NCBI RefSeq assembly: GCF_006345805.1
Contig: NC_043022.1
Span: 14,694,001-14,758,000 of the forward strand
Direction: 5' to 3'
DNA from: Octopus sinensis
Taxonomy: Eukaryota
DNA: 64,000 nucleotides
This document shows positions 6,405 to 44,444 of the stretch, in pieces (positions within the stretch are counted from its first letter, which is position 1; each line of letters opens with the position of its first letter). The notes under the pieces are model-generated. The model was not told the DNA's origin and ran no database searches. It saw only the letters and a program-made list of their open reading frames with translations. Position numbers and translations under genes: made by a program.

Positions 6405-7601
6405 TCTTCATTTACATATATACATTTCCAAAAATGAGTTTAGAAGGATACCTTACTTCGAGCTGTGTGAATAATACCGGATTGACTTGGTGCCTCAACT
6501 TAGGTACCGATTTCAACTGAATCTTTATTATATATATATATATTTAATGTAGGATGAAATTTTTTTCGAAAAAATTTTATCAATGGCTAGCATATTAAAA
6601 AATACCTTTAAAGGTTAAAATTATAAACAACTTATAAATAAGGGCAAACGAAAAAATTTCTAATGCCAAATATGCCGAAAATTGGACATATTGTTCATTA
6701 TGCTGGTGGAGAATGTTAGGTGGAGAATGTTTGAGAAGCGTTAATGCAGTTGTTACGTCAGACTTTCGGTAACTTACCACAATAAAAAGTCAGAACTAGT
6801 ATAAAATAGGGGTGGTGGTGGTGGTGGAGAAAAATGGTTAAGACAAAGATGTGGGTGAAGAAACAAGAATTTTAGGGGAAGATGAAAGAAATAAAGGAAC
6901 GAAGGAACAGAGTATGAAAAAATGGGGGGAGATTGTAACATTGAAAAATTAAAGGTAGGGTGTAGGTGCTATATATAAAAGGGGTCAAAATGGAAAAAAT
7001 GTCAGAGAGGAATATACATATATATATTATTTTTAAATTTTTTTTACTACCCACAAGGGGCTAAACATAGAGGGGACAAACAAGGACAGACAAACGGATT
7101 AAGTCGATTATATCGACCCCAGTGCGTAACTGGTACTTATTTAATCGACCCCGAAAGGATGAAAGGCAAAGTCGACCGCGGCGGAATTTGAACTCAGAAC
7201 GCAGCGGCGGACGAAATACCACAAAGCATTTCGCCCGGTGTGCCAACGTTTCTGCCAGCTTGCCGCCTTGAATATATATATATATATATAATGGTAGAAG
7301 TAAAAATTGTAGGTAATGTCTCAAATTATATAGAAATGAGTAAGAAATACCAGGTGGGTTTTGTTACAAATAAGATCTAAAGAAATAAAATGAAGAGAAT
7401 TAAGAATAAACATATATTTTTTTTTCTTCTTAAAAGCGGTGCAGGCATAGCCGTGTGGTTAAGGTACTTGTTTTGCAACCATGTGGTTTTGGGTTCAGTT
7501 CCATTGCATGGCACCTTGAGTGGTGTATTCTACTGTAGCCTCAGGCCAACAAATTCTTTGAGGATGAATTTACTTGACAAAAACTGTGTGGAAGCCCATC
7601 T

Positions 7602-13891: not shown

Positions 13892-14644
13892 CTGTATAAA
13901 AGCAAACAGGTTAAGAAAGTGAAGATTACATCATCATCACCAACCCCCACCATCACCATCACCATCATCACAAGTTTCAATGCCTACTCTTTCATGGGAT
14001 AGATGAAATTCATTGAGGAAGGTTTTCTACAGCTGGATGCCCTTACTGTCTATTTCTTTATTACCCACAAGGGGCTAAACATAGAGGGAACAAACAAGAA
14101 CAGACATAGGTATTAAGTCAATTACATCAACCCCAGTGTGTAACTGGTACTTAATTTATCGACCCCGAAAGGATGAAAGGCAAAGTCGACCTCGGCGGAA
14201 TTTGAACTCAGAACGTAACGGCAGACGAAATACCGCAAAGCATTTCTCCCGGCGTGCTAACGCTTCTACCAGCTCGCCGCCTTATGCCCTTATTGTCACC
14301 AACCATCACCTGTTTCCAAGAAGGTTATTTACCCTAGTCCTCTCAACATGAATTGCACAATGGACAGTCATGATTTCATGAAAAACTGCAAGTGACGGAG
14401 ACTGCTTATGTGATTGGTGACATTACGACTAACAAATGACGTTAATACAAAAGACACACATATACACATAGGAGCATTCTGTTCGTTATGACAACGAGGG
14501 TCCCAGCTGATAACTAAAGAATTAAAAAAGAACTGTTGAAAAGGCACAAGGGTATGGTTGCTCCTCTGTCAGCTATGATACTGATCTGTAGTATACCATA
14601 ACAACAACAGCAACAATACTAAACAGTTAAAGGATTCCTCTTTC

Positions 14645-14821
14645 AGTTCTATATTTAAGAGATGAGGAATTATTTACATTGTTTACATTTGACGGATATT
14701 TGTCCTCATCTTGTTTGTTGTTAACACAACATTTCGGCTGATGTACCCTACAGCCTTCATCTGGTGTCTTGGGGGAAATTTCCAACAAGAGTTCTCATTC
14801 CTAAGGCATTTTTTGATGTTG

Positions 14822-14868
<47 letters not shown>

Positions 14869-14922
14869 TTTATTATTCAGGCCACTGCCTGGAATCTAAC
14901 TCGGAATCTTGGGAGTTAGTAG
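14645..14922 (-). mobile_element. 5'-truncated hammerhead-SINE copy, inverted relative to 14964-15204
   Basis: Reverse complement contains GACAC-CAGATGA-A-GGCTG...CAGCC-GAAA-TG-TT-GTGTT (14723-14768). Confidence 0.75.
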
Positions 14923-14963
14923 GAAAATATTAGATTTATAAGCCCTAAAATTCACTCCAAATT

Positions 14964-15204
14964 GCCCACGGGCATATGGTGTAGTGGCTAAGAGCACATG
15001 CTACTAACCCCAAGATTCCGTGTTCGATTCCAGGCAGTGACCTGAACAGCAACAACAACAACATCGAAAAAATACCTTAGTAATGAGAACCCAGGTTCAA
15101 AATTTCCCCAAGATGAAGGCTGGAGGGTATATCAGCCGAAGCATTGTGTTAACAACAAACAAGATGAGGACAAATATCCGTCAAATGTAAATAATGTAAA
15201 TAAT
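14964..15204 (+). mobile_element. tRNA-headed hammerhead-SINE copy (core partly deleted)
   Basis: Same family as 37936-38335; A box TGGTGTAGTGG, B box GTTCGATTCC. Confidence 0.75.
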
Positions 15205-15223
15205 GGGGTCCGCTTTGTCTTAC

Positions 15224-15545
15224 CTTGAAGATTTTCTTTCCGAATAATCATATCTTGATTTTCTCCTTCGAGCTGTTCTTTCCTTGCTCGGAGCTGAGTA
15301 TTTTCCTGTTGGACCTCATACAAAGTGTTCTCTAAGCTGTCTTTGTCGGTTCTAATAGCAGCGATGACTTCGCTTTGCTGTCGGTTTTCCCTCTCCGTTG
15401 CTGTGACTTGAACAACCAGTTCTGCATTCTGTTGAGTCAGCTGTTCCTTGTCCTTGTTGATCTTCGAGATTATTGTTTTGTGACGTTCCAGTTCTTTGCG
15501 CAATGCCAGCAACTCTTCAGCCAGGGCCTGTTTCTGACGAGACAG
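15224..15545 (-). CDS. CROCC: Rootletin exon (LSRQKQALAEELLALRKE...IIRKENLQ)
   Basis: tttgtacag acceptor, G|GTAAGA donor, 322 nt, phase 0/1. Confidence 0.93.
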
Positions 15546-15621: not shown

Positions 15622-16180
15622 AAATGCCCTGATGCAGTACCAGGCAGTGGCTCTTATGGCTTCTGATCTTAACTGATTGGAAGAGTTATCGTGTACATTG
15701 TTTTGTCTTGGTATAAAAGATGGGCTACAGCAAATATTCTGCTCAATACCACAGATTTGCTTGTCAGCTGTTTGACCATAACCAGTTGACCATGTCCCTT
15801 GGTGGATGACGATATGTGCGTCTCTGATCACGAGCAGAAGTAGTGGGGGAGCATCATAGCTATGTGTTGAGAGGAATTCTTTGGAGTTTGAATAATTCAC
15901 CTCTGGAAACATGGGTGTTTCGTTCAACATCCTTAAACAACCCTTATTCAGGGACCTTTCGAGTGGGATGGGTTACTCGACCTGAAGAAAATTCTAACTG
16001 GGCCCCACCTGCAAGGTCATGTGCTGTTTATCTTGATATGAGATGACCATGTCCCGCACATATGGTTGTGAAGCATGTACCTAGTGTACCCTTATCAGAC
16101 GGGTAGTCATGATGGGTATATTGGGCTTCGTATATTTTACCCCAGTGTCACTTTGATGGCATGCACTGCTCTCTCACTCA
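15622..16180. mobile_element. (AAT)n-targeted non-coding retroelement fragment (second copy ~40040-40410)
   Basis: ~560-bp dispersed repeat flanked on both sides by (AAT)n. Confidence 0.6.
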
Positions 16181-16599
16181 ATAATAATAATAATAATAAT
16201 GGCTTCAAGCAGTTATGGGAGGAGGGGATGAGTCGATTACATCGACCCCAGTGTTCAACTGGTACTTAATTTATTTACCCCGAAAGGATGAAAGGCAAGG
16301 TCAACCTCAATGGAATTTGAACTCAGAACGTAGCCTCGGGTGAAATACTGCCAAGAATTTCATCCAATGTGCTAACTATTCTGCCAGCTTGCCACCCAAA
16401 ATAATAATAATCCTTTCTACTATAGGTACAAGGTTCCCAAAGTGGATAGTATCGCCCCTCCCTTCCTGAGGGGGTGGAAAATTCCAAGGGTGCGTTGAAG
16501 GAAAGTGGGGGTGATAATGAGGTAGTGATTCATGTAAAAACAAACAAATTAATTGGTTCATCAGGTTAAGTTTTATTTGTGAAATACAGTTGCTTTGAA

Positions 16600-17570: not shown

Positions 17571-18152
17571 TTTGACTTTACCTATCCAAAGGGAATTTTA
17601 ACCCAATCACGTAAATAACACTCGTGCCGGTGCCACATGAAAAGTACCCAGTATACTCCGTAAAGTGGTTGGCATCAGACCAGAGGGACCACGTCAAAAC
17701 AGACATGGAGTCCAGGCTGCTTTGCAACTGGCCAGCACCTGTCATACCTATTTCTTTATTACCCACAAGGGGCTAAACATAGAGGGGACAAACAAAGACA
17801 GACATAGGTATTAAGTCGATTACATCGACCCCAGTGCGTAACTGGTACTTAATTTTTCGACCCCGAAAGGATGAAAGGCAAAGTCGACCTCGGCGGAATT
17901 TGAACTCAGAACGTAACAGCAGACAAAATACCGCTGAGCATTTTGCCCGGCGTGCTAACGATTCTGCCAGCTCGCCGCCTTGAGCTGTCATACCATCCAA
18001 CCCATGCCAGCATGGGCAATGGACGTTAAATGATGATGATTTATTTTCTATTGTTTATGGTTTTTCTACTTTGATTTCAACCATTAAAAAGAGAAAAACA
18101 AACAAACAAAAAAAGCTCATGCAAAAACGAAATAAAAGACTTATAATCCTAC

Positions 18153-18750: not shown

Positions 18751-19682
18751 TAAAGAGGAAATATTCAAATATGAAATATGAACCATCACCATCATTTAAT
18801 GCTCAACCTCTATGCCGATGTGGGTCGGATAGTTTAATAGGATCCAATGGATCCAAGGACTGCATTGTGCTCAAATGATTAGTTTGGCATGGATTTTAGG
18901 GGCTAGTGGGGGTTTGTGACAAGAAAGTAAATTTGGCTGCTGAAAATCTACCTCAAAGAATTCTGTCTGAGCATGCTAAACCTATTTCTTTACTGCCCAC
19001 AAGGGGCTACACACAGAGGGGACAAACAAGGACAGACAAACGGATTAAGTTGATTACATCAACCCCAGTGTGTAACTGGTACTTATTTAATCGACCCCGA
19101 AAGGATGAAAGGCAAAGTCGACCTCAGCAGAACTTGAACTCAGAACGTAGCGGCAGACGAAATACCGCTACGCATTAAGCCCGGCGTGCTAACGATTCTG
19201 CCAGCTCGCCACCTTAAACCATCATCATTTTAATGTCCTCTTATCCATGCTTGCATGGGTTGGACAGGATTTGTTGAGGCAGATTTTTCTATGGCTGGAT
19301 GCTCATCCTGTCACCAACCCTTATGTTTCCAAGCAGGGGTAATATTTCCCCCATGGCCAGACAGGTTCTCACAGAATACTGGAAATGACCGACACTGCTT
19401 GTATGACAGTGACACTCATTTACGACTATTATATGAAATCAAGACAGACACAAAGACACACAAACGCACACACACGACAGGCTTCTTTCAGTTTCTCTCT
19501 TACAAAATACACTCATGAGGCTTTGGTCAGCTCGGGGCTACAATAGAAGATGCTTTGCTATGATGCTGTACAGTGGAACTGAACATGAGACCCTGTGATT
19601 GGGAAGCAAGCTTCTTACCACGTGGCAGCCATGCTTGCACTTGTAAAGTGGATGTCAAAATGATTATGATGATGTTGCTGCT

Positions 19683-20480: not shown

Positions 20481-22757
20481 CTGAAAATAGAAATACAGTT
20501 GGTATATTCACCTATAAGTGCAGGGTATTTGTAAACCACCCTAGGCTTGATAATATTGCCAGAACTGAATCAGCCTGACCCCGTGGCGTATGGTGGGTGA
20601 TGTATTGGGTGTGTTTCTATACTCAATGTCCCTAAATTTCAAGCAGGAGTATAACAAAAGTTTTCCATTAAGATTTGTGATTAGATTAACGAGCAAGGTT
20701 AATTTATAATGAATTTGCCATTTTTGATGGGTGTGCTGCACATACCTAGCACACCCTGGATATTACATACATATACGTGTATGGCAGCGAGCTGGCAGAA
20801 TCGTTAGCATGCCAGGCAAAATGCTTAGCGGTATTTCGTCTGCGTTACGTTGTGAGTTCAAATTCCGCCGAGGTCGACTTTGCCTTTCATCCTTTCGGGG
20901 TTGATAAATTAAGTACCAGTTACGCACTGGGGTCAATATAATCGACTTAATACCTATGTCTGTCCTTGTTTGTTCCCTCTGTGTTTAGCCCCTTGTGGGT
21001 AATAAAGAAATAGGTATTTCATCTGCCGTTACATTTGGAGTTCAAATTCTGTCGAGGTCAACTTTGCCTTTCATCCTTTCGGGGTTGATTAAATAAGTAC
21101 CAGTTACGCACTGGGGTCGATGTAATCGACTTAATCCCTTTGTCTGTCCTTGTTTGTACCCGCTGTGCTTAGCCCCCTGCGGGCAATAAAGAAATATCTA
21201 TGTATGTATATTAAAAAGGAGGGGTTGGGTTTGCATTGTAGTAGCAAGGGGTCATTGAGAAGGAGCTAGCAAAAGGGAAGGGAAGATGACTTAAAAATGT
21301 TCGAAACGTACTGTGCCACAGATGCTCAAGGGAATTATAGTGGACCCTCAATTTACAAATTTAATTCATTCCTGAGGGCAATTCATCACCTGAAATGTTT
21401 GCAAACTGAAACTCTTTCTACCAAAGGAAATTCAAGAGAAAGCCCAGCAGATACAAGCAGGGCTGTCCACAGAGCGAAGGCCAGACAGCAACTGACGCTA
21501 ACCTGTTGATATTCCCAGTTTGTTGCCAACTGCCGTCGTTACTGGCCTGCGTGCTCTCGTTACTCAAGACGTCGTTTGTCACCTGAGACATTTTATGTTT
21601 GAAAAATTGCTTTGTAAACCAATTTGTTCTTAATGGGAGCCATTCATAGACAGAGGTTCTACTGTACAGGATTACCAATCGAAAGAGGTCAACAGTGGTT
21701 TTTGTATCAACAGTTATTTACTCAAAACAAACAACAACAACAAAAATGACATATGTTCCACGAAACTGTGTTGTATTTTAAGCCTCTTCTGTGAAGGAAC
21801 TGACATTCTCACATGCAAACGATCGTGTTGGTTCATGTTGCTCAGCTGATTAATTACACAAAGTCTTTCTTAATTAGCAGCCAATATCTATATTTTTTTA
21901 TCTTTTGCTTGGTTCAGTCATTGGCTTATGGCCATGCTGAAGCAATGCCTTAAAGGGATTTTGTTAAACAAATCAACCCTGGTACTAATGTTGTTCTTTT
22001 TTTTTTTTTAAATCTGATACTTATTTTATCAATTTCTTTTGCTGAACCACTAAGTTATAGGCAATGGAGATGTTAACAAAACAACACCTGTTGCCAAGCA
22101 GAAAGACGGAGACAATTACATATACAGACACACGATGAGCTTCCACACAATTCCTGTCTGCTAAATTCACACAGAAGGCATTGATCAGCTCGGGGCTATA
22201 GTAAAATAGACACTTGCTCAAGGTGCCACACAGTGAGACTGAACCCAAAACCACATGGTTGCAAAAGTGAGCTCCTTAACCACACAGCCATGCCTGTGTC
22301 AACACGGATTCCCCACGGGATTTTCCTTTCCCCTGTCCCTTGTCATTTATTTATGTACTGAAAGCACTCCGTCGGTTACGACGATGAGGGTTCCGGTTGA
22401 TCCGAATCAACGGAACAGCCTGCTCGTGAAATTAACGTGTAAGTGGCTGAGCACTCCACAGACATGTGTACCCTTAACGTAGTTCTCGCGGATATTCAGC
22501 GTGACACAGAGAGTGACAAGGCCGGCCCTTTGAAATACAGGTACAACAGAAACAGGAAGTAAGAGTGAGAGAAAGTTGTGGTGAAAGAGTACAGCAGGGA
22601 TCACCACCATCCCTGCCGGAGCCTCGTGGAGCTTTTAGGTGTTTTCGCTCAATAAACTCTCACAACGCCCGGTCTGGGAATTGAAACCGCGATCCTATGA
22701 CCGCGAGTCCGCTGCCCTAACCACTGGGCCATTGCGTACTAACCTTTATATACTAAC

Positions 22758-26084: not shown

Positions 26085-26690
26085 GGCTCTGAACCATTCT
26101 TTTCTAATGGGCCTCTTTCATTACTATCTTACTCTGGTAGACCCCTTTTATTACTATTCTGCTCAGGTGGACCCCTTTCATAACTATTTTACTCTGGTGG
26201 ACCACTTTCAATACCGTTTTGCTCTGATAGACCCCTTTCATTACTGTTTTACTCTAATGGACCCCTTTCATTACTATTTTGCTCTGGTGGACCCCTTTCA
26301 TTAATGTTTTGCTCTAGTGGACCCCTTTCATTACTGTTTTGTTCTGATGGACCCCTTTCATTACTATTTTGCTCTGATGGACCCCTTTCATTATTGTTTT
26401 GTTCTGCTGGACCCCTTTTATTACTATTTTGCTCTGGTGGACCCTTTTCAATACCGTTTTGCTCTGATAGACCCCTTTCATTACTGTTTTGTTCCGGTGG
26501 ACCCCTTTCATTACTATTTTACTCTGATGGACCCCTCTTATTACTATTTTACTCTGATGGACCCCTCTTATTACTATTTTACTCTGGTGGACCCCTTTCA
26601 TTACTATTTTGCCCTGGTAGATCCCTTTCATTACTATTTTACTATGGTGGACCCGTTTCATTACTGTTTTGCTCTGGTGGACCCCTTAGC
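26085..26690. repeat. 30-bp minisatellite, ~20 units
   Basis: Unit GGACCCCTTTCATTACTATTTTGCTCTGGT. Confidence 0.95.
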
Positions 26691-27019: not shown

Positions 27020-27465
27020 ATCATCATCATCATCATCGTTTAACGTCCGTTCTCCGTGCTAGCATGGGTTGGACGGTTCGACCGGGGATCTGGGAAGCCA
27101 GAAGGCTGCACCAGGCTCTAGTCTGATCTGGCAGTGTTTCTACAGCTGGATGCCCTTCCTAATGCCAACCACTCCGCGAGTGTAGTGGGTGCTTTTTACG
27201 TGCCACCTGCACTGGTGCCAGGCGAGGCTGGCATCTGCCACGGTCGGATTGGTGCATTTTATGCGCCACCGGCACGGAAGCCAGTCGAGGCAGCACTGGC
27301 TTCGGCCACGATTCGGATGGTGCTTTTCACGTGCCACCGACACGGAAGCCAGTCGAGGCAGCACTGGCTTCGGCCACGATTCGGATGGTGCTTTTTACGT
27401 GCCACCGACACGGAAGCCAGTCAAGGCAGCACCGGCTTCGGCCACAATTCAGATGGTGCTTTTTA
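27020..27465 (-). mobile_element. SINE with RTE-derived/Ceph-like domain and (TGA)n tail, internal tandem subrepeats (copies ~9850-10120, 11950-12310, 12705-13040, 29118-29335, 32430-32645)
   Basis: GGTTGGC.TTAGGAAGGGCATCCAGC and GGACGTTAAACGATGATG motifs. Confidence 0.75.
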
Positions 27466-28138: not shown

Positions 28139-28717
28139 TAAAATAAAATAAAATAAAATACAATAAAATAAAATAAAATAAAATAAAATACAATAAAATA
28201 AAATAAAATAAAATAAAATACAAAATAAAATACAATAAAATAAAATACAATAAAATACAATAAAATAAAATAAAATACAATAAAATAAAATACAATAAAA
28301 TAAAATACAATAAAATAAAATAAAATACAATAAAATAAAATAAAATAAAATACAATAAAATAAAATACAATAAAATAAAATAATACAATAAAATAAAATA
28401 CAATAAAATAAAATACATAAAATAAAATAAAATAAAATACAAATAAAATACAATAAAAAAAATAAAATAAAATACAATAAAATAAAATACAATAAAATAA
28501 AATAAAATACAATAAAATAAAATAAAATACAATAAAATAAAATACAATAAAATAAAATAAAATAAAATACAATAAAATAAAATACAATAAAATAAAATAC
28601 AATAAAATAAAATAAAATACAATAAAATAAAATACAATAAAATAAAATAAAATAAAATAAAATAAAATAAAATACAATAAAATAAAATAAAATAAAATAC
28701 AATAAAATAAAATAAAA
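28139..28717. repeat. (AAAAT/ACAAT)n pentanucleotide array directly upstream of an exon acceptor
   Basis: Direct reading. Confidence 0.95.
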
Positions 28718-29002
28718 TTGAATTTTAAAAAAAAGAAAATTTGAGAAAATATCAGAAAGCATAGGCACAATCATGGCTGTGTGGTCAGGGAATTTGCTTC
28801 GCTACTCCATAGTTTTCATTTTGGCCCCACTGCAAGGCTTTGATTGACCCGAAGCTATAGCAGAAGACATTTGTCCAAGGTGTCATGCAGTGGGACTGAA
28901 CCTGGAACCATGTGGTTGGGAAGCAAACTTCTTACCACACAACCACATTGCAAAATACCTCACAGAATCACTGGGGACGGTCACAGATGGAATTCCTTAG
29001 AT

Positions 29003-34306: not shown

Positions 34307-35742
34307 TGTATGTATGTATGTATGTATATATATATATGTATATGTGTGTGTAGATATGTCCCAAAAGCACTGGTTAAGAAAATCCAATGCTGAAAAGGTT
34401 ATATAGAATGAATTGAAGTTCAGTACCGTTTCTTCCTCTCCTCTCCTCTTGCTCCCAGAACTCTTGAATGCTTTAAGAAACAGCAGCCTATCAACTCAAT
34501 GTGTCTTCAACAGCACACATTCCAGGTGGTTCTGTGAAGTTTTCAGTGGGCGAGGGTACGGGCGGGGGTCTCTGCTCGACACCCCCCACCTTTCAGCCAG
34601 CCTGTGTTTGTGTCGCCCACCCTAATGGATATACCTGCAATCAACGTTCATACCTGAGTGTGATTTATTCATTCCTTTGTTTCTGTCTCCATGGCACAGT
34701 GGGAGTTTTGGTTTTCAATTTGTGCTTATGTATATACCTTATATACCTATGTATATACCTATGTATATACCTATGTATATACCTATGTACCTACCTAAAT
34801 ACACACGAATACATACATACATACATACACATTCACACATATACAAACACACCCACAAATATATACATACACACACACACACACATAGACTGTGAGAGAA
34901 AAGGGGAACTATATAACAAAGGGATCAAAAGACAAATATACAAGCAGACAAAAAATAACACAAAAAACAATAAAATAAATATTAAAAAAAAAACACTGTT
35001 CAGAGAAAGAAAAGAGGGGGGAGAACAAGGAACTTAATTAAAATGTAACCCAACTGTAACCCAATCTAACTAAATACATTAATTAGATGATGTTGGTGGT
35101 GGTGGGGAGAAATGAATAATGAAAGAAGAAAGAAGAGTGGTAGACGTATTTTGATGAGGAAAGAATGTGTAGGAAAATATGAAGTAGCCTATAGGATGGC
35201 TGTGTGGTTAGGGACCCTGTTTTGCAACCATGTGGTTTTGGGTTCAGTTCCACTGTGCAGCACCTTGGGCAAGTGGCTTCTGCTATATATTACTTTACTA
35301 CCCACAAGGGGCTAAACAAGGAGAGACAAACGGATTAAGTTGATTACATCGACCCCAGTGCGAAACTGGTACTTTATTTATCGACCCCGAAAGGATGAAA
35401 GGCAAAGTCGACCTCGGCGGAATTTGAACTCAGAACGTAACGGCAGACGAAATACCGATGAGCATTTCGCCCGACGCGCTAACATTTCTACTAGCTCGCC
35501 ACCTTCAATTGGCTTCTGCTAAAGTCCAGCGGTCAGCCACAGCCTAGTGAGTGGATTTGATAAACAGAAAATGAAAGAAGCCTTATATATATATATATAT
35601 AAGGTGATGCTCCGGGATGGCCAACGTCAAATGACTGAAACAGATAAAAGATTAAAAGAATATATATATATATATATGTGTGTGTGTCTCCACCTTCTAT
35701 GAGCTTGCTACCTTCTACTAGCCCTAAAGCATTCATAATTAA

Positions 35743-36704: not shown

Positions 36705-37300
36705 TCAGTTATTCCTTCAACATACCCTCCATTCCCACAACACATTACCAGTCATTCATTCAATATACCTCCATTCCCACAACACATTAAGTCATTCCTT
36801 CAATATACCCCCCATTCCCACAACACATTAAGTCATTCCTTCAATATATCCCCCCCTCGTTCCCACAGCACATTACTAGCCATTCATTCAATATACCCCC
36901 CCATTCCCACAACACATTAAGTCATTCCTTCAATATACCTCCCCCGTTCCCACAGCACATTACCAGTTATTCATTCAATATACCCCCCCCCCGTTCCTAC
37001 AGCACATTACCAGCCATTCATTCAATATACCCCCCATTCCCACAACACATTAAGTCATTCTTTCAATATACCCCCCATTCCCACAACACATTAAGTCATT
37101 CCTTCAATATACCCCCCATTCCCACAACACATTGTCATTCCTTCAATATACCCCCCATTCCCACAACACATTGTCATTCATTCAATATACCCCCCATTCC
37201 CACAACACATTAAGTCATTCTTTCAATATACTTCCCATTCCCACAACACATTACCAGTCACTCTTTCAATCTACCCCCCCCACATTCCCACAACTCTCTA
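36705..37300. repeat. ~38-40-bp minisatellite
   Basis: Unit CCATTCCCACAACACATTAAGTCATTCCTTCAATATACC. Confidence 0.9.
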
Positions 37301-37741: not shown

Positions 37742-38387
37742 CAGGGTTGGCCAAAAGTCAGCTGACAGTAAAGCAAAACCATTTAATTCCAAAATTTATT
37801 ATTTGTTTAATAAATAAATGAATTTAATAAAAGCATCGAAATATGAAACATCATGAAAATAGTTCAAACTGAACTACTTCTTGAGCGACTTCATAATTGG
37901 ATTGAATAAATAAAATTGAATATTAAGTATTTATGCCCACGGACACATGGCATAGTGGTTAAGAGCACAGGCTACTAACCCCAAGATTCCAAGTTCGATT
38001 CCAAGCAGTGATTTGAATAATAATAATAGCAATAATAACTTCGAAAAATACCTTAGGAATGAGAACCCAGGTTCGATATTTCCCCAAGACACCTGATGAA
38101 GGCGTAGTGCTTAAGAGCACATGCTACTAACCCCAAGATTCCGAGTTCGATTCCAAGCAGTGACCTGAATAATAATAATAATAACAATAATAACATTGAA
38201 AAATATCTTAGGAATGAGAACCCAGGTTTGAAATTTCCCCATGATACCTGATGAAGGCTGGAGGGTATATCAGCCGAAATGCTGTGTTAACAACAAACAA
38301 GATGAGGGACAAATATCCATCAAATGTGAATAATGAAGTATTTATGGAATTTTTGATTTACTGTTGGGTGACTTTTGGCTAACCATG
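37742..38387. mobile_element. Mariner/Tc1-type MITE hosting the hammerhead-SINE
   Basis: TA-flanked TIRs CAGGGTTGGCCAAAAGTCA...; same family as 25103-25331. Confidence 0.7.
37936..38335 (+). mobile_element. tRNA-headed SINE with a hammerhead-containing 3' part (internally duplicated), 11-bp TSD
   Basis: A/B boxes, (AAT)n, CTGATGA-A-GGCTG...CAGCC-GAAA at 38243-38288; TSD aagtatttatg at 37925-37935 and 38336-38346. Confidence 0.8.
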
Positions 38388-39589
38388 TATATTTCCAAAT
38401 TTGATTGACCTGCTCGTCTTTTTGACAACCTTGATGTTAAGGTCATTTCGAAACAGAGACCCACCTCAGTTTCCTACCAGCATGCACTAAACTTCCAAAT
38501 GGCTCCATAGATACACTCAGGATGGATGTCTTGTCTTCCTGTGTTTCTGATACTACGTATTTCCAAATTTAAATCATACCAATAAATTATTTATGTCTTT
38601 ATTGCCCACAGGGGGCTAAACATAGAGGGGACAAACAAGGACAGACAAAGGGATTAAGTCGATTACATCAACCCCAGTGTATAATTGGTACTTATTTAAT
38701 CGATCTCGAAAGAATGAAAGGCAAAGTCAACCTTGGCGAAATTTGAACTGAGAACGTAGTGACAGACGAAATACCTATTTCTTTACTACCCACAAGGGGC
38801 TAAACACAGAGGGGACAAACAAGGACAGAGAAACGGATTAAATGGATTATATCGACCCCAGTGTGTAACTGGAACTTATTTAATCGACCCCCTAAAAGAT
38901 GAAAGGCAAAGTCGACCTTGGCGGAATTTGAACTCAGGATGTAACGGCAGACGGAATACCTATTTCTTTACTACCCACAAGGGGTTGGTACTTAATTTAT
39001 CGACCCCAAAAAGATGAAAGGCAAAGTCGACCTCAGTGGAATTTGAACTCAGAACGTAACAGCAGACGAAATACCGCTAAGCATTTCACCCGGTGTGCTA
39101 ACATTTGTGCCAGCTCACCAATAATTATTCAAACAATCCTAGGATGGTAGAAGCTGTGTTGATATATTCTCAGATAATGTTATCGTCAGTTATTGTTATT
39201 TAACTGGCTCTCTTTGAAAGTGATCATAATAAGCAGCTTCCACTGAATGTATACATGTCTATATGTATGAAAACACGTGTGCGTATGTCTCTATACACAC
39301 ATATATCCATGTATATATGTGTAAGTGTGTGTGTGTATGACTGAGTGCATATGTTTCTAAGGGTGAAGCGTGGCATTATTTGGCTGGGGTCAGGTTATTT
39401 CAGAATGGAGGTGTTCAGGTGATAACTGTGTCTTCATGTAGCTACAGCTTTACCATTTACCTTTCAGATGCCATCATGGTTTGAACTGCTTCAATAGCAA
39501 ACTCAGTATTTGTTATTGAAACATTTGCCAACCAATAAAATATGGGAGGTTTTTTTTTGATGCACCACAAGTATATATTAACCCCATTA

Positions 39590-41870: not shown

Positions 41871-42437
41871 TGACTAAAGGTGGTGCTCCAGCATGGCTGC
41901 AGTCAAATGACTGAAACAAGTAAAAGAGTAAAAGAATATATATGTGTATGTATGTGTGTGTGTGTCTATGCATGTGTATGTATGTGTGTGTATTTGTCCC
42001 CCCACCACATTTTGACATTGGTGTTTGTGTGTTTATGTCCCCCACCACCACCACCACCACCACCACCGTAACTCAGTCCTATGGCTTGAGTAAAAAAAAA
42101 AGAAAAGAAAGAAAAGGAAATTTTATGACTTTTAATAACGAGGAAACAGTAATTGGAAGTGTTGGAATTTTTATATCCTGAATAATCTCTGTAATGAGAC
42201 CAGATCTATTTGCCTTTTTCTTTTTTGTTGTTGTTTTTTTCCTTCTCCTTAATTTGTTTTTCCTTTGTGCCTTTATTTTGGGAAGAAGAATAAATAACAA
42301 CATTTGCAAGGCTCCCTGACAGCTCCAGGACCCAAAAAGGCACATTTTGGTTCTGGTGAAGACAACAAAGAGTTGCAAAGTTAAAATAATGCCAGATTGA
42401 TTTCAACTGGCAGCAGCCCAAGTTTCAAGGTTAACCT

Positions 42438-43050
42438 AGTAGTGGTAGTAGTAATAGTGGTGGTGGTGGTAGTAGTGATGGTAGTGAGTGGTAGTTGTAG
42501 TAGTAATAGTAGTAATAGTGGTGAGTGGTAGTTGTAGGAGTAATAGTAGTAATAGTGGTGAGTGGTAGTTGTAGTAGTAATAGTGGTGAGTGGTAGTTGT
42601 AGTAGTAATAGTAGTAATAGTGGTGAGTGGTAGTTGTAGGAGTAATAGTGGTGAGTGGTAGTTGTAGGAGTAATAGTGGTGAGTGGTAGTTGTAGTAGTA
42701 ATAGTAGTAATAGTGGTGAGTGGTAGTTGTAGGAGTAATAGTGGTGAGTGGTAGTTGTAGTAGTAATAGTGGTGAGTGGTAGTTGTAGTAGTAATAGTAG
42801 TAATAGTGGTGAGTGGTAGTTGTAGTAGTAATAGTGGTGAGTGGTAGTTGTAGGAGTAATAGTGGTGAGTGGTAGTTGTAGGAGTAATAGTGGTGAGTGG
42901 TAGTTGTAGTAGTAATAGTGGTGAGTGGTAGTTGTAGGAGTAATAGTGGTGAGTGGTAGTTGTAGGAGTAGTAGTGGTGGTGGTAGTAGTAATAGTGGTG
43001 GTGGTAGTAGAAGCAGCAGCAGCAGTAGTAGTAGTAGCAGTAGTAGTAGT
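42438..43050. repeat. Compound (TAG/TGG) repeat with 27/36-bp higher-order units
   Basis: GTAATAGTGGTGAGTGGTAGTTGTAG(G/T)A repeats. Confidence 0.9.
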
Positions 43051-44444
43051 AATTGGTGATATGAATCAAAGGATGGTGACTGGATAGGATTGACTGTGAA
43101 GCCATTTTGCAGAAATGTCAGAATTAAAAAAAAAAAATAAAATAAAATAAATAAAAATAAACATATATAAAAAAAAAAGACTTGTTGAAATCTGAGAATG
43201 TATTGTGTTAAGACAGTCAGAGATCAACAGGCGCGGGGGGGGGGGGGGGGATTTGGTTTGATGGCGCTTCAGAAGGGAAAAACGCTCTGCCAGGGTTTCA
43301 CAATCTAAACATTGTTATTTCTTTTTCTTTTGGCTGTGTGGTTAAAATGCTTGCTTCACAACTATGCAACCACGTGGTTTTTTCGTGTTCAGTTCCTCTG
43401 CACAGCACCACCTGGGGGTAAAATGTCTCCTATTATAGCCCTGGGCTGACCAATACCCTTTGAGTGAATTTGGTAGATGGAAACTGTGGAAGCCTGTCGT
43501 GTGTGTGTGTGTGTCTGTGCCAACCACCACCACTGCATCACCATTCGATAAGTGGTGTTGGTTTCTTTATGTCCCTCTAACTTAGCAATCTGGCAAAAGG
43601 GAACAACAGAATAAACATGGAATTTTGATGGAAGAAGGTTTTAATTTAGACCACTTTAACAGCTTTGTTATCATATTTCTCTTGAAATAGATTTGTTTCA
43701 ATTAATTTTGAAAAATAACGAAGAATTTAGTAAACTAATTTTGTCATTACTAAGCCGGTGTCAAAGGCAGCGAGCTGGCAGAATCGTTAGCATGCCGAGT
43801 AAAATGCTTAGCGGTATTTTGTCTGCCGCTACGTTGTAAGTCCAAATTCCGCCGAGGTCGACTTTGCCTTTCATCCTTTCGGGGTTGATAAATTAAGTAC
43901 CAGTTATGCACTGGGGTCGATGTAATTGACTTAATACCTATGTCTGTCCTTGTTTGTCCCCTCTGTGTTTAGCCCCTTGTGGGTAGTAAAGAAATAGGTA
44001 TTTCGTCTTCTGCTATGTTTGGAGCTAAAATTCTGCCGAGGTCGACTTTGCCTTTCATCCTTTCAAGGGGTCAGTGAAATAAGTACCAGTTACACACTGG
44101 GGTCGATGTAATCGACAAGCCCCCTTCCCCCCAAATTTTCATGGCCTTGTACCTAGAGTAGAAATAATTATTAAGTTGGTGTCTGGAACATAAATATGAA
44201 ATTTTGATGGAAGAAGGCTTAAATTTCGATCACTTTAAAACAGGAAGTTTGTACCAGAGAACCAACGGCCTTCTCATGTGAAATGGTAATAGAATGGTTA
44301 AGTAGTAACTAAATAGCAAACAGATACGAAAACAAATGATTCTATTTATGAAGACTTGTATATAAAAACCTTTAGAGGAAAATAAATGAGTGGAATATTA
44401 GCAGAATATAAACAAACAATAAATGGGGAAAAAATAATAAAAGA

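What the first reader, a model, noticed from the sequence alone, without database searches (positions are those of the whole stretch)
37925..38346. tRNA-headed SINE family carrying a Penelope-type hammerhead ribozyme (ribozyme-SINE chimera)
Seen: three loci (37936-38335 +, 14964-15204 +, 14645-14922 -) share a Pol III tRNA-like head (A/B boxes), an (AAT/AAC)n spacer, and a 3' module. The module's cross-copy consensus is GACAC-CTGATGA-A-GGCTG(loop)CAGCC-GAAA-CG-TT-GTGTT, a minimal type-I hammerhead with 5-bp stems I and II and almost no stem III. Copies show TG, TG and CA at the CG position, consistent with CpG decay. The 37.9-kb copy has an 11-bp TSD (aagtatttatg) and sits inside a mariner MITE, so it retrotransposed as a unit. 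Its first internal unit breaks off just after the ribozyme core and restarts in the tRNA head. Established: minimal hammerheads of this form occur in Penelope-like element termini and retrozymes, whereas SINE tails normally derive from LINEs. Inference: a SINE that took its tail from a Penelope-like element and may use ribozyme cleavage to process its RNA and Penelope RT to move. I do not know whether this family has been described. Each copy here has at least one core mutation.
Basis: partly seen in the sequence, partly recalled or inferred. Interest (0 to 1): 0.8.

Follow-up and report, generated by a model that had tools for sequence, protein, structure and literature searches.

The report
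Penelope retrotransposon with a tRNA-derived head
The short repeat is the terminal repeat of a protein-coding Penelope-type jumping gene that carries a tRNA-like head and a hammerhead ribozyme motif; its RNA likely starts at that head, which would explain why thousands of copies look like SINEs and suggests a promoter type not expected for such an element.

Summary
In detail: tRNA-like head, (AAT)n spacer, minimal hammerhead with intact family consensus (2,887 exact core matches genome-wide, control 0). It is not simply a SINE with a borrowed tail. The whole unit, head included, is the pseudo-LTR of an autonomous Penelope/Poseidon-type element: 25 of 30 endonuclease-bearing loci carry the head just after the ORF stop, and tandem copies read from the unit in frame into the RT ORF. 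Insertions show Penelope anatomy: 43 of 90 are head-to-head inverted pairs, 41 of 43 have the tail on one arm only, 32 of 43 share one target-site duplication. 5' ends pile up at the head (49 of 62 arms reaching it), marking a likely RNA start at tRNA-promoter distance. Short and ORF-linked copies have the same age and variants. The unit lacks TTTT, but so does one control family, so Pol III transcription is unproven. A deletion at the cleavage site (30 of 213 arms) may record in vivo cutting. Precedents: Schistosoma Sm-alpha, Cassandra/Helenus. New variant; interest 0.62.

The parts
37925..37935 (+). Left target-site duplication (11 bp)
37936..38011 (+). tRNA-like head of unit 1 (A box 37948-37958, B box 37991-38002); starts at the family's 5'-end hotspot
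38037..38103 (+). Partial body of unit 1: ATG of the Penelope ORF (38059-38061) and first half of the hammerhead; ends at a GGC microhomology (likely template switch)
38101..38167 (+). tRNA-like head of unit 2 (5'-truncated in the A box; B box 38143-38154)
38168..38191 (+). (AAT/AAC)n spacer, 5' UTR of the element
38192..38335 (+). Body = pLTR part that encodes the ORF N-terminus (ATG 38214-38216); ends at the tail-less 3' end class
38243..38288 (+). Minimal type I hammerhead: stem I 38243-47/38284-88, core 38248-54, extra A 38255, stem II 38256-60/38271-75, GAAA 38276-79, predicted cut 38283|38284; this copy is mutated at U16.1 and at the CpG
38336..38346 (+). Right target-site duplication
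37742..38387 (.). Host MITE, TA-flanked, about 33-bp terminal inverted repeats
14644..14922 (-). Tail-bearing arm of one inverted insertion (body 14644-14820 with 25-nt tail at 14644-14668; partial head 14878-14922)
14920..14963 (+). 3' end of the Penelope ORF region (97.7% to ORF-bearing copies) leading into the head
14965..15204 (+). Tail-less arm of the same inverted insertion (head 14965-15044, body 15060-15204); possible decayed TSD 14632-14643 / 15205-15216 (9 of 12)

Best explanation
The repeat is the terminal repeat (pseudo-LTR) of a Penelope-type retrotransposon with an RT and GIY-YIG ORF, and it contains a tRNA-like head and a minimal hammerhead motif; the element's RNA likely starts at that head, and the SINE-sized copies are likely made when the element's own enzyme primes near the first pLTR-ORF junction and runs off the RNA's 5' end. 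Shown: the unit sits at both ends of an ORF (827 codons on the column-majority yardstick; a 401-residue open frame across the junction in natural copy L335), the hammerhead overlaps the first codons, and insertions are inverted, one-side-tailed and bounded by mostly 10-13 bp duplications. Inferred from Poseidon biochemistry (PMC11167929): the enzyme nicks both target strands and starts at two internal sites, giving a tailed and a tail-less arm joined head to head. Inferred: an ancestor captured a tRNA-derived SINE or tRNA gene after its stop codon and now uses its A/B boxes to set the RNA start. Whether Pol III makes the whole ~2.9-kb RNA is open (about 0.3). The ribozyme likely cuts only occasionally, as a dimer, and is likely not needed for movement.
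For: 25 of 30 EN loci have the head downstream, 3 only the body, 2 neither. L278/L335 and L291/L336 show pLTR followed in frame by the ORF; ADKG, YVDD and YKGET motifs in one frame; RVT_1 above cut-off. 111 relatives with E<=1e-10; the closest (P0001, 47-53%) keeps the ribozyme-encoded peptide at its N-terminus. First 90 pattern loci of C1: 43 inverted, tail on exactly one arm in 41, both 0, TSD in 32; shuffled flanks 2.3%; tail-to-tail 0. 5' ends: 49 of 91 heads end in a 12-nt zone, 9.6% per nt against 0.8% inside the head and 0.3% in the ORF; ORF breakpoints are not enriched at equally strong hairpins, 7 of 53 against 12% coverage. Short vs ORF-linked copies: 4.6-4.7% vs 4.3-4.5% non-CpG divergence and the same minor variants; 19 of 55 tails run on >=3 nt into ORF letters against 4.9% in flanks. 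The head aligns to the genome's own tRNAs (27 sequences, z 1.7-7.7; best raw score Arg-TCT, 49 identities).
Against: No RNA start was observed: two RNA-seq runs of a related or same-label organism gave equal strands, 77% run-on reads and no end pile-ups. A -13 kcal hairpin spans the ORF-end/head boundary, and the palindrome at the head start inflates counts at inverted junctions. Only one ORF-bearing copy with a nearly complete 5' head was seen (L335, begins at head position 9). Pfam GIY-YIG did not match the two EN segments tried; the EN rests on motifs, weak tblastn to other PLE ENs and relatives' annotation. ARAGORN and Rfam do not call the head a tRNA, and the isotype is unresolved (Ala-TGC has the top z). 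No copy with an unbroken full ORF was found among the loci fetched.
Confidence: 0.75

Rival explanations
1. One reading: solo pLTRs are themselves transcribed by Pol III and amplify in trans as a true Penelope-dependent SINE.
For: A and B boxes at tRNA spacing, 5'-end pile-up at the head, no TTTT in the unit, short copies far outnumber ORF copies (13 of 91 heads continue upstream).
Against: No separate age or variant spectrum for short copies; letters beyond the tail match the ORF more than chance. In Poseidon PAc the RNA needs ORF sequence beyond the RT start sites (PMC11167929 passages), which a solo copy may lack. Samples are small (40 ORF-linked and 92 short head matches), so a SINE-like contribution is not excluded.
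Confidence: 0.2
2. The tRNA head is a passenger in the UTR: Pol II transcribes the element from upstream, and short copies are ordinary 5' truncations concentrated by the boundary hairpin and palindrome.
For: Hairpin of -13.1 kcal/mol across the boundary; many junctions use the palindrome; D. virilis Penelope uses an internal LINE-like promoter (PMC2377424); a Nematis-like family is also TTTT-free.
Against: Equally strong hairpins in the ORF do not attract breakpoints (7 of 53 against 12%); ends not at an inverted junction also cluster at the head, including the TSD-bounded 37.9-kb copy; 30-fold higher break rate than in the ORF.
Confidence: 0.2
3. A non-LTR retrozyme that is cut to monomers and circularised by its hammerhead.
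For: Intact type I core with palindromic helix III in the consensus; animal retrozymes are proposed to derive from PLE pLTRs (bioRxiv 10.64898/2026.07.22.740005).
Against: Direct repeats in only 3 of 90 loci; unit ends do not lie at the cut site; no end pile-ups in reads.
Confidence: 0.04

Closest known systems
Penelope/Poseidon PLEs (Poseidon PAc of Anolis, PMC11167929; D. virilis Penelope, PMC2377424; structure in PMC8557442)
   Same: One RT + C-terminal GIY-YIG ORF, pLTR from partial tandem, inverted 5'-truncated arm, one-sided tail, hammerhead overlapping the ORF start.
   Different: The pLTR begins with a tRNA-derived A/B-box head and an (AAT)n spacer; most copies stop at that head. None of the passages read mentions a tRNA head in a PLE.
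Schistosoma Sm-alpha / Sj-alpha (via PMC2770079 and PMC6765202 passages; primary papers not held)
   Same: tRNA-related SINE-like repeat with a type I hammerhead, tens of thousands of copies.
   Different: Sm-alpha has a canonical ribozyme and tandem arrays processed by cleavage; here the ribozyme is the minimal PLE type, copies are inverted pairs, and the unit is the end of a coding element. Sequence homology not tested.
Cassandra, Helenus, Ajax (TRIMp3; PMC10886601 passages)
   Same: Small-RNA-derived Pol III-type promoter inside a terminal repeat, probably from a SINE insertion.
   Different: Those are non-autonomous LTR elements; that paper argues autonomous partners must use Pol II. Here the head sits in an autonomous non-LTR PLE.
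Animal non-LTR retrozymes (PMC7229834 passages; bioRxiv 10.64898/2026.07.22.740005 parts 1-2)
   Same: Short non-coding hammerhead repeats related to PLE pLTRs.
   Different: No head-to-tail arrays here (3 of 90), and ends are set by RT start sites and the head, not by cleavage.
Octopus tRNA SINEs OK/OR1/OR2 (Ohshima and Okada 1994; only the citation was seen)
   Same: tRNA-derived short repeats in what is probably the same animal group (host identity is my recalled impression from the repeats, untested).
   Different: Could not compare sequences; OR2 is described as a CORE SINE (PMC4758252 passage), and I recognised no such core here (by eye, not tested).

Membership tests
Penelope-like element, EN+ | Single ORF with PLE-type RT and C-terminal GIY-YIG endonuclease | tested here: met
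   827-codon majority frame with ADKG/YVDD/YKGET; RVT_1 34.9 bits over cut-off 29.6; Pfam GIY-YIG itself not matched; 111 RT relatives, 4 annotated PF01541
Penelope-like element, EN+ | Pseudo-LTR from partial tandem arrangement | tested here: met
   L335/L278 and L336/L291; head after ORF in 25 of 30
Penelope-like element, EN+ | Inverted 5'-truncated copy at the 5' end | tested here: met
   43 of 90 unbiased, 78 of 142 overall; TSD spans the pair in 56 of 78
Penelope-like element, EN+ | Tail extension at one end only | tested here: met
   one arm 70, both 0, neither 8 of 78; tail is about 25-34 nt and continues into the ORF
Penelope/Poseidon clade | Placement by RT phylogeny; no Zn-finger-like linker between RT and EN | tested here: inconclusive
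   No CxxC linker in translations, unlike the genome's Neptune-type families; no tree with named references was built
Penelope-like element | Spliceosomal intron near the RNA start (some members) | not tested
   not examined
Minimal type I hammerhead (PMC4209133) | CUGANGA / GAAA / UH core, extra base after A9, G10.1-C11.1, palindromic 15.2-16.2, helix I 4-5 bp | tested here: met
   positions 16.1/17 are TT in 139 of the 170 matches listed (six commonest classes)
Minimal type I hammerhead | Stem covariation | tested here: inconclusive
Minimal type I hammerhead | Self-cleavage as a dimer | not testable with these tools
   Dimer geometry -20.7 against 2 x -11.2 kcal/mol is uninformative; deletion hotspot at the cut site is indirect
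SINE (tRNA-derived) | tRNA-derived head with A and B boxes | tested here: met
   Alignments to genomic tRNAs, z up to 7.7; no ARAGORN or Rfam call
SINE (tRNA-derived) | Pol III transcription | not testable with these tools
   Indirect only: 5'-end pile-up, no TTTT
SINE (tRNA-derived) | Lineage distinct from its autonomous partner, sharing only the 3' tail | tested here: not met
   The whole unit is shared with the PLE; same age and variants
Non-LTR retrozyme | Head-to-tail tandem units each with a hammerhead | tested here: not met
   Direct repeats in 3 of 90 loci

The most novel reading that the evidence does not exclude
An autonomous, protein-coding retrotransposon whose ~2.9-kb messenger is made by RNA polymerase III from a captured tRNA promoter (no TTTT anywhere on the 2.67-kb sense strand), which sheds SINE-like copies in cis and whose copies carry deletion scars where reverse transcriptase jumped a ribozyme cut.
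Probability: 0.3. Interest if true: 0.85.

Novelty: new variant of a known kind. Interest (0 to 1): 0.62.

Why it matters
It shows a route to SINE-like repeats without a separate SINE lineage: a Penelope that captured a tRNA head produces them from its own RNA, so repeat libraries would split one element into a 'SINE' and a 'PLE'. If Pol III makes the coding RNA, it contradicts the stated expectation that autonomous elements need Pol II (PMC10886601) and raises the question of how an uncapped RNA is translated. The role of PLE hammerheads in vivo is open (PMC4209133, PMC11167929). A deletion hotspot exactly at the predicted cut, in a family with thousands of intact ribozymes, makes that question testable from genomes and in vitro.

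Tried and rejected
Rfam and ARAGORN: no tRNA or hammerhead call. Partner search by Pfam GIY-YIG (50 loci examined) and by a Nematis-like EN (30 loci) found other PLE families with no match to the unit; the partner appeared only by tblastn in the repeat's own flanks. My first reading that the ORF stop lies inside the A box came from one mutated copy and was rejected. A tight pattern for a parent tRNA found nothing. A homolog search with the Nematis-like EN found nothing. Metagenome relatives (8 loci, 34-42%) were too distant and partial for covariation; they have ordinary TTTT counts, 5-23 per locus. Sequencing runs: no RNA holder listed by the index; two raw RNA runs gave passenger-type reads. 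Dimer folding energy was uninformative. A subfamily origin for the cut-site deletion found no support: no linkage, p 0.78. Earlier scan notes: nothing. L004 and L020 were dropped as duplicates of L003 and L005; L026 was also left out. Three key papers were not held (Ohshima and Okada 1994; Ferbeyre 1998; Lunse 2016). Repbase and Dfam could not be searched and no supplements were read, so the family may already have a library entry.

Full report
Observation. The three segments exist as described. The 37.9-kb copy has an 11-bp TSD and lies in a TA-flanked MITE. Each window copy has a core defect. In G000 (2.72 Gb) an exact core + stem II pattern has 2,887 matches, reversed control 0; an 11-nt-loop variant has 24. 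The majority of 44 near-full copies is an intact minimal hammerhead of the form described for PLEs: extra base after A9, G-C first pair of stem II, palindromic helix III (PMC4209133, parts 1-2 of 4 read). Four of 43 arms not picked by the pattern match it, giving roughly 31,000 arms (95% range about 13,000-111,000). Copies are 4-5% diverged at non-CpG sites and about 20-33% at CpG, with no extra conservation of the core, as expected for dead copies.

Insertion anatomy. I examined 142 loci: 28 by similarity, 24 by the variant pattern and 90 of the first pattern hits on C1. In the last, least biased set, 43 of 90 are head-to-head inverted pairs, none tail-to-tail, and 3 hold direct repeats. A 25-nt tail is on exactly one arm in 41 of 43 and never on both. 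A TSD spans the whole pair in 32 of 43; shuffled flanks give 2.3%; lengths are mostly 10-13 bp. Arms of a pair share private variants 31 times against a null mean of 9.6 (max 20 in 500). These are the PLE hallmarks described in PMC8557442 (passages). The window's 14.6-15.2 kb segments are one such event.

The partner. Neptune-type and Nematis-like PLE families of this genome do not share the unit. tblastn of their proteins against the repeat's own flanks revealed a third family directly upstream of the head. Of 30 loci found with its endonuclease, 25 carry the head about 25-30 bp after the stop codon, 3 only the body and 2 neither. Walking 5' gave copies in which the same unit precedes the ORF and reads into it in frame (L278/L335, 401 open residues; L291/L336, whole ORF region). 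The column-majority frame is 827 codons, starts at an ATG inside the unit and holds RT and GIY-YIG-type motifs. Pfam confirms RT but not GIY-YIG. The closest of 111 relatives keeps the ribozyme-encoded peptide at its N-terminus, so the body is native PLE sequence. The window's + arm itself starts with 44 bp of the ORF end. No unbroken full ORF was seen in a single fetched copy.

How the short copies arise. Of 91 heads in the 90-locus set, 49 end within head positions 0-11, 29 further inside and 13 continue into the ORF; break rates are 9.6%, 0.8% and 0.3% per nt. A boundary hairpin and a palindrome could contribute, but equally strong ORF hairpins attract no excess (7 of 53 against 12%). Short and ORF-linked copies have equal divergence and the same minor variants, and 19 of 55 tails continue 3 or more bases into ORF letters against 4.9% by chance. 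Poseidon PAc nicks and extends both strands, starts at two internal sites that bound the tail, has its ORF starting in the hammerhead and does not need the ribozyme in vitro (PMC11167929, passages). Inference: the RNA starts at the head; priming at the first pLTR-ORF junction yields head-to-tail short copies, priming at the distal one yields ORF copies, and two primings give the inverted pair.

The head and the polymerase. The head aligns to the genome's own tRNAs (27 sequences from 30 loci, z 1.7-7.7; Arg-TCT best by score, Ala-TGC by z), with the A box 13 nt after the break peak and the B box 43 nt further. ARAGORN and Rfam do not call it. The 2.67-kb sense strand has no TTTT: expected 4.9 (mononucleotide shuffle, P 0.004), 2.7 (dinucleotide, P 0.054), 2.9 in the ORF (synonymous shuffle, P 0.035). 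Natural copies have 0.34 per kb against 1.2-3.4 in four Neptune-type families, but the Nematis-like family has 0.44 and none in its majority. So support for Pol III read-through is modest. RNA-seq reads (8,040 and 5,827 laid from two runs) are strand-balanced, mostly run on into unlike sequence and show no end pile-ups; such libraries cannot settle it.

The ribozyme. A deletion of up to 10 nt, mostly 3, touches the predicted cut site in 30 of 213 arms; the best window away from it has 11, and comparable microhomology sites in the ORF lose 3 nt at most 0.3% of the time. It shows no linkage to other variants (p 0.78) and no age difference, and of 19 scored pairs that have it, 18 have it on one arm only. 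It appears in 259 of 3,869 and 154 of 2,914 reads. The product is what a jump by a 2-nt microhomology across the cut would give. DNA slippage at this spot, or mixing of templates, is not excluded, and the deletion also keeps the reading frame. I put the scar reading at about 0.5. The break in unit 1 of the window copy is a microhomology switch well before the cut site, not a ribozyme product.

Comparison and novelty. It works like a Penelope/Poseidon element and meets the structural tests; clade placement was not tested with named references. It resembles a SINE in head and size but fails the test of being a lineage distinct from its partner. tRNA + hammerhead repeats are known from schistosomes (PMC2770079, PMC6765202, passages). 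Small-RNA promoters in terminal repeats are known from non-autonomous LTR elements (PMC10886601, passages). PLE-derived retrozymes are described (PMC7229834 passages; bioRxiv 10.64898/2026.07.22.740005 parts 1-2 of 5). Ten full-text searches listed no paper on a PLE with a tRNA-derived head; a recent octopus repeat annotation (PMC13282606, part 1 of 3 and passages) has no mention of ribozymes in its main text. I also saw PMC2377424 (abstract, discussion), PMC4758252 and PMC6962438 (passages). Repbase, Dfam, supplements and subscription papers were not seen and may hold the family.

Verdict. Real, and clearer than first read: a Penelope-type element with a captured tRNA head whose terminal repeat makes up a large SINE-like family. 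New variant of a known kind. Interest 0.62; 0.85 if the coding RNA is a Pol III product (probability 0.3).

Noticed in passing
window 15224-15500 (minus strand): Coiled-coil coding exon ending at a GT donor about 19 nt from the inverted insertion; Atlas hits are generic coiled-coil clusters; it recalls rootletin to me, untested.
   Followed up: partly
window 7036-7290, 14050-14304, 16165-16419, 17748-18002, 18982-19236, 35272-35526, 38591-38845: Another abundant ~255-nt interspersed repeat, probably a different SINE; a 184-bp tandem form at 20830-21196 and 38592-38984.
   Followed up: no
L148 about 1130, L162 about 567: A second dispersed repeat with a minimal hammerhead of the same style but a different stem II; partner unknown.
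   Followed up: no
L115, L120, L122, L123, L058, L133, L063: Hammerhead-like motifs beside Neptune-type PLE endonucleases, each family with its own stems.
   Followed up: no
L061, L062, L129 and others: Neptune-type PLE families with long open frames (775-883 codons), suggesting recent activity in this genome.
   Followed up: partly
L135-L164: Nematis-like PLE family whose ORF is also nearly free of TTTT on the sense strand; no A/B-box pair found in these loci by a strict pattern.
   Followed up: partly
L270, L271: Inverted units of this family repeated within larger ~4-4.6 kb segmental duplications, with another insertion inside the RT.
   Followed up: no
L338 2165-2311: An arm that extends 101 nt into the ORF beyond the usual tail end, suggesting an occasional downstream RT start.
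   Followed up: no
family body, after the hammerhead: Variable number of a 9-nt repeat before the tail (insertions in about 30 of 213 arms), frame-preserving, inside a stem-loop whose arms flank the tail-less end.
   Followed up: partly
window 26108-26687, 27188-27465, 28139-28718, 36707-37279, 42437-43051: Minisatellite arrays with periods 30, 68, 5, 41 and 28/93.
   Followed up: no
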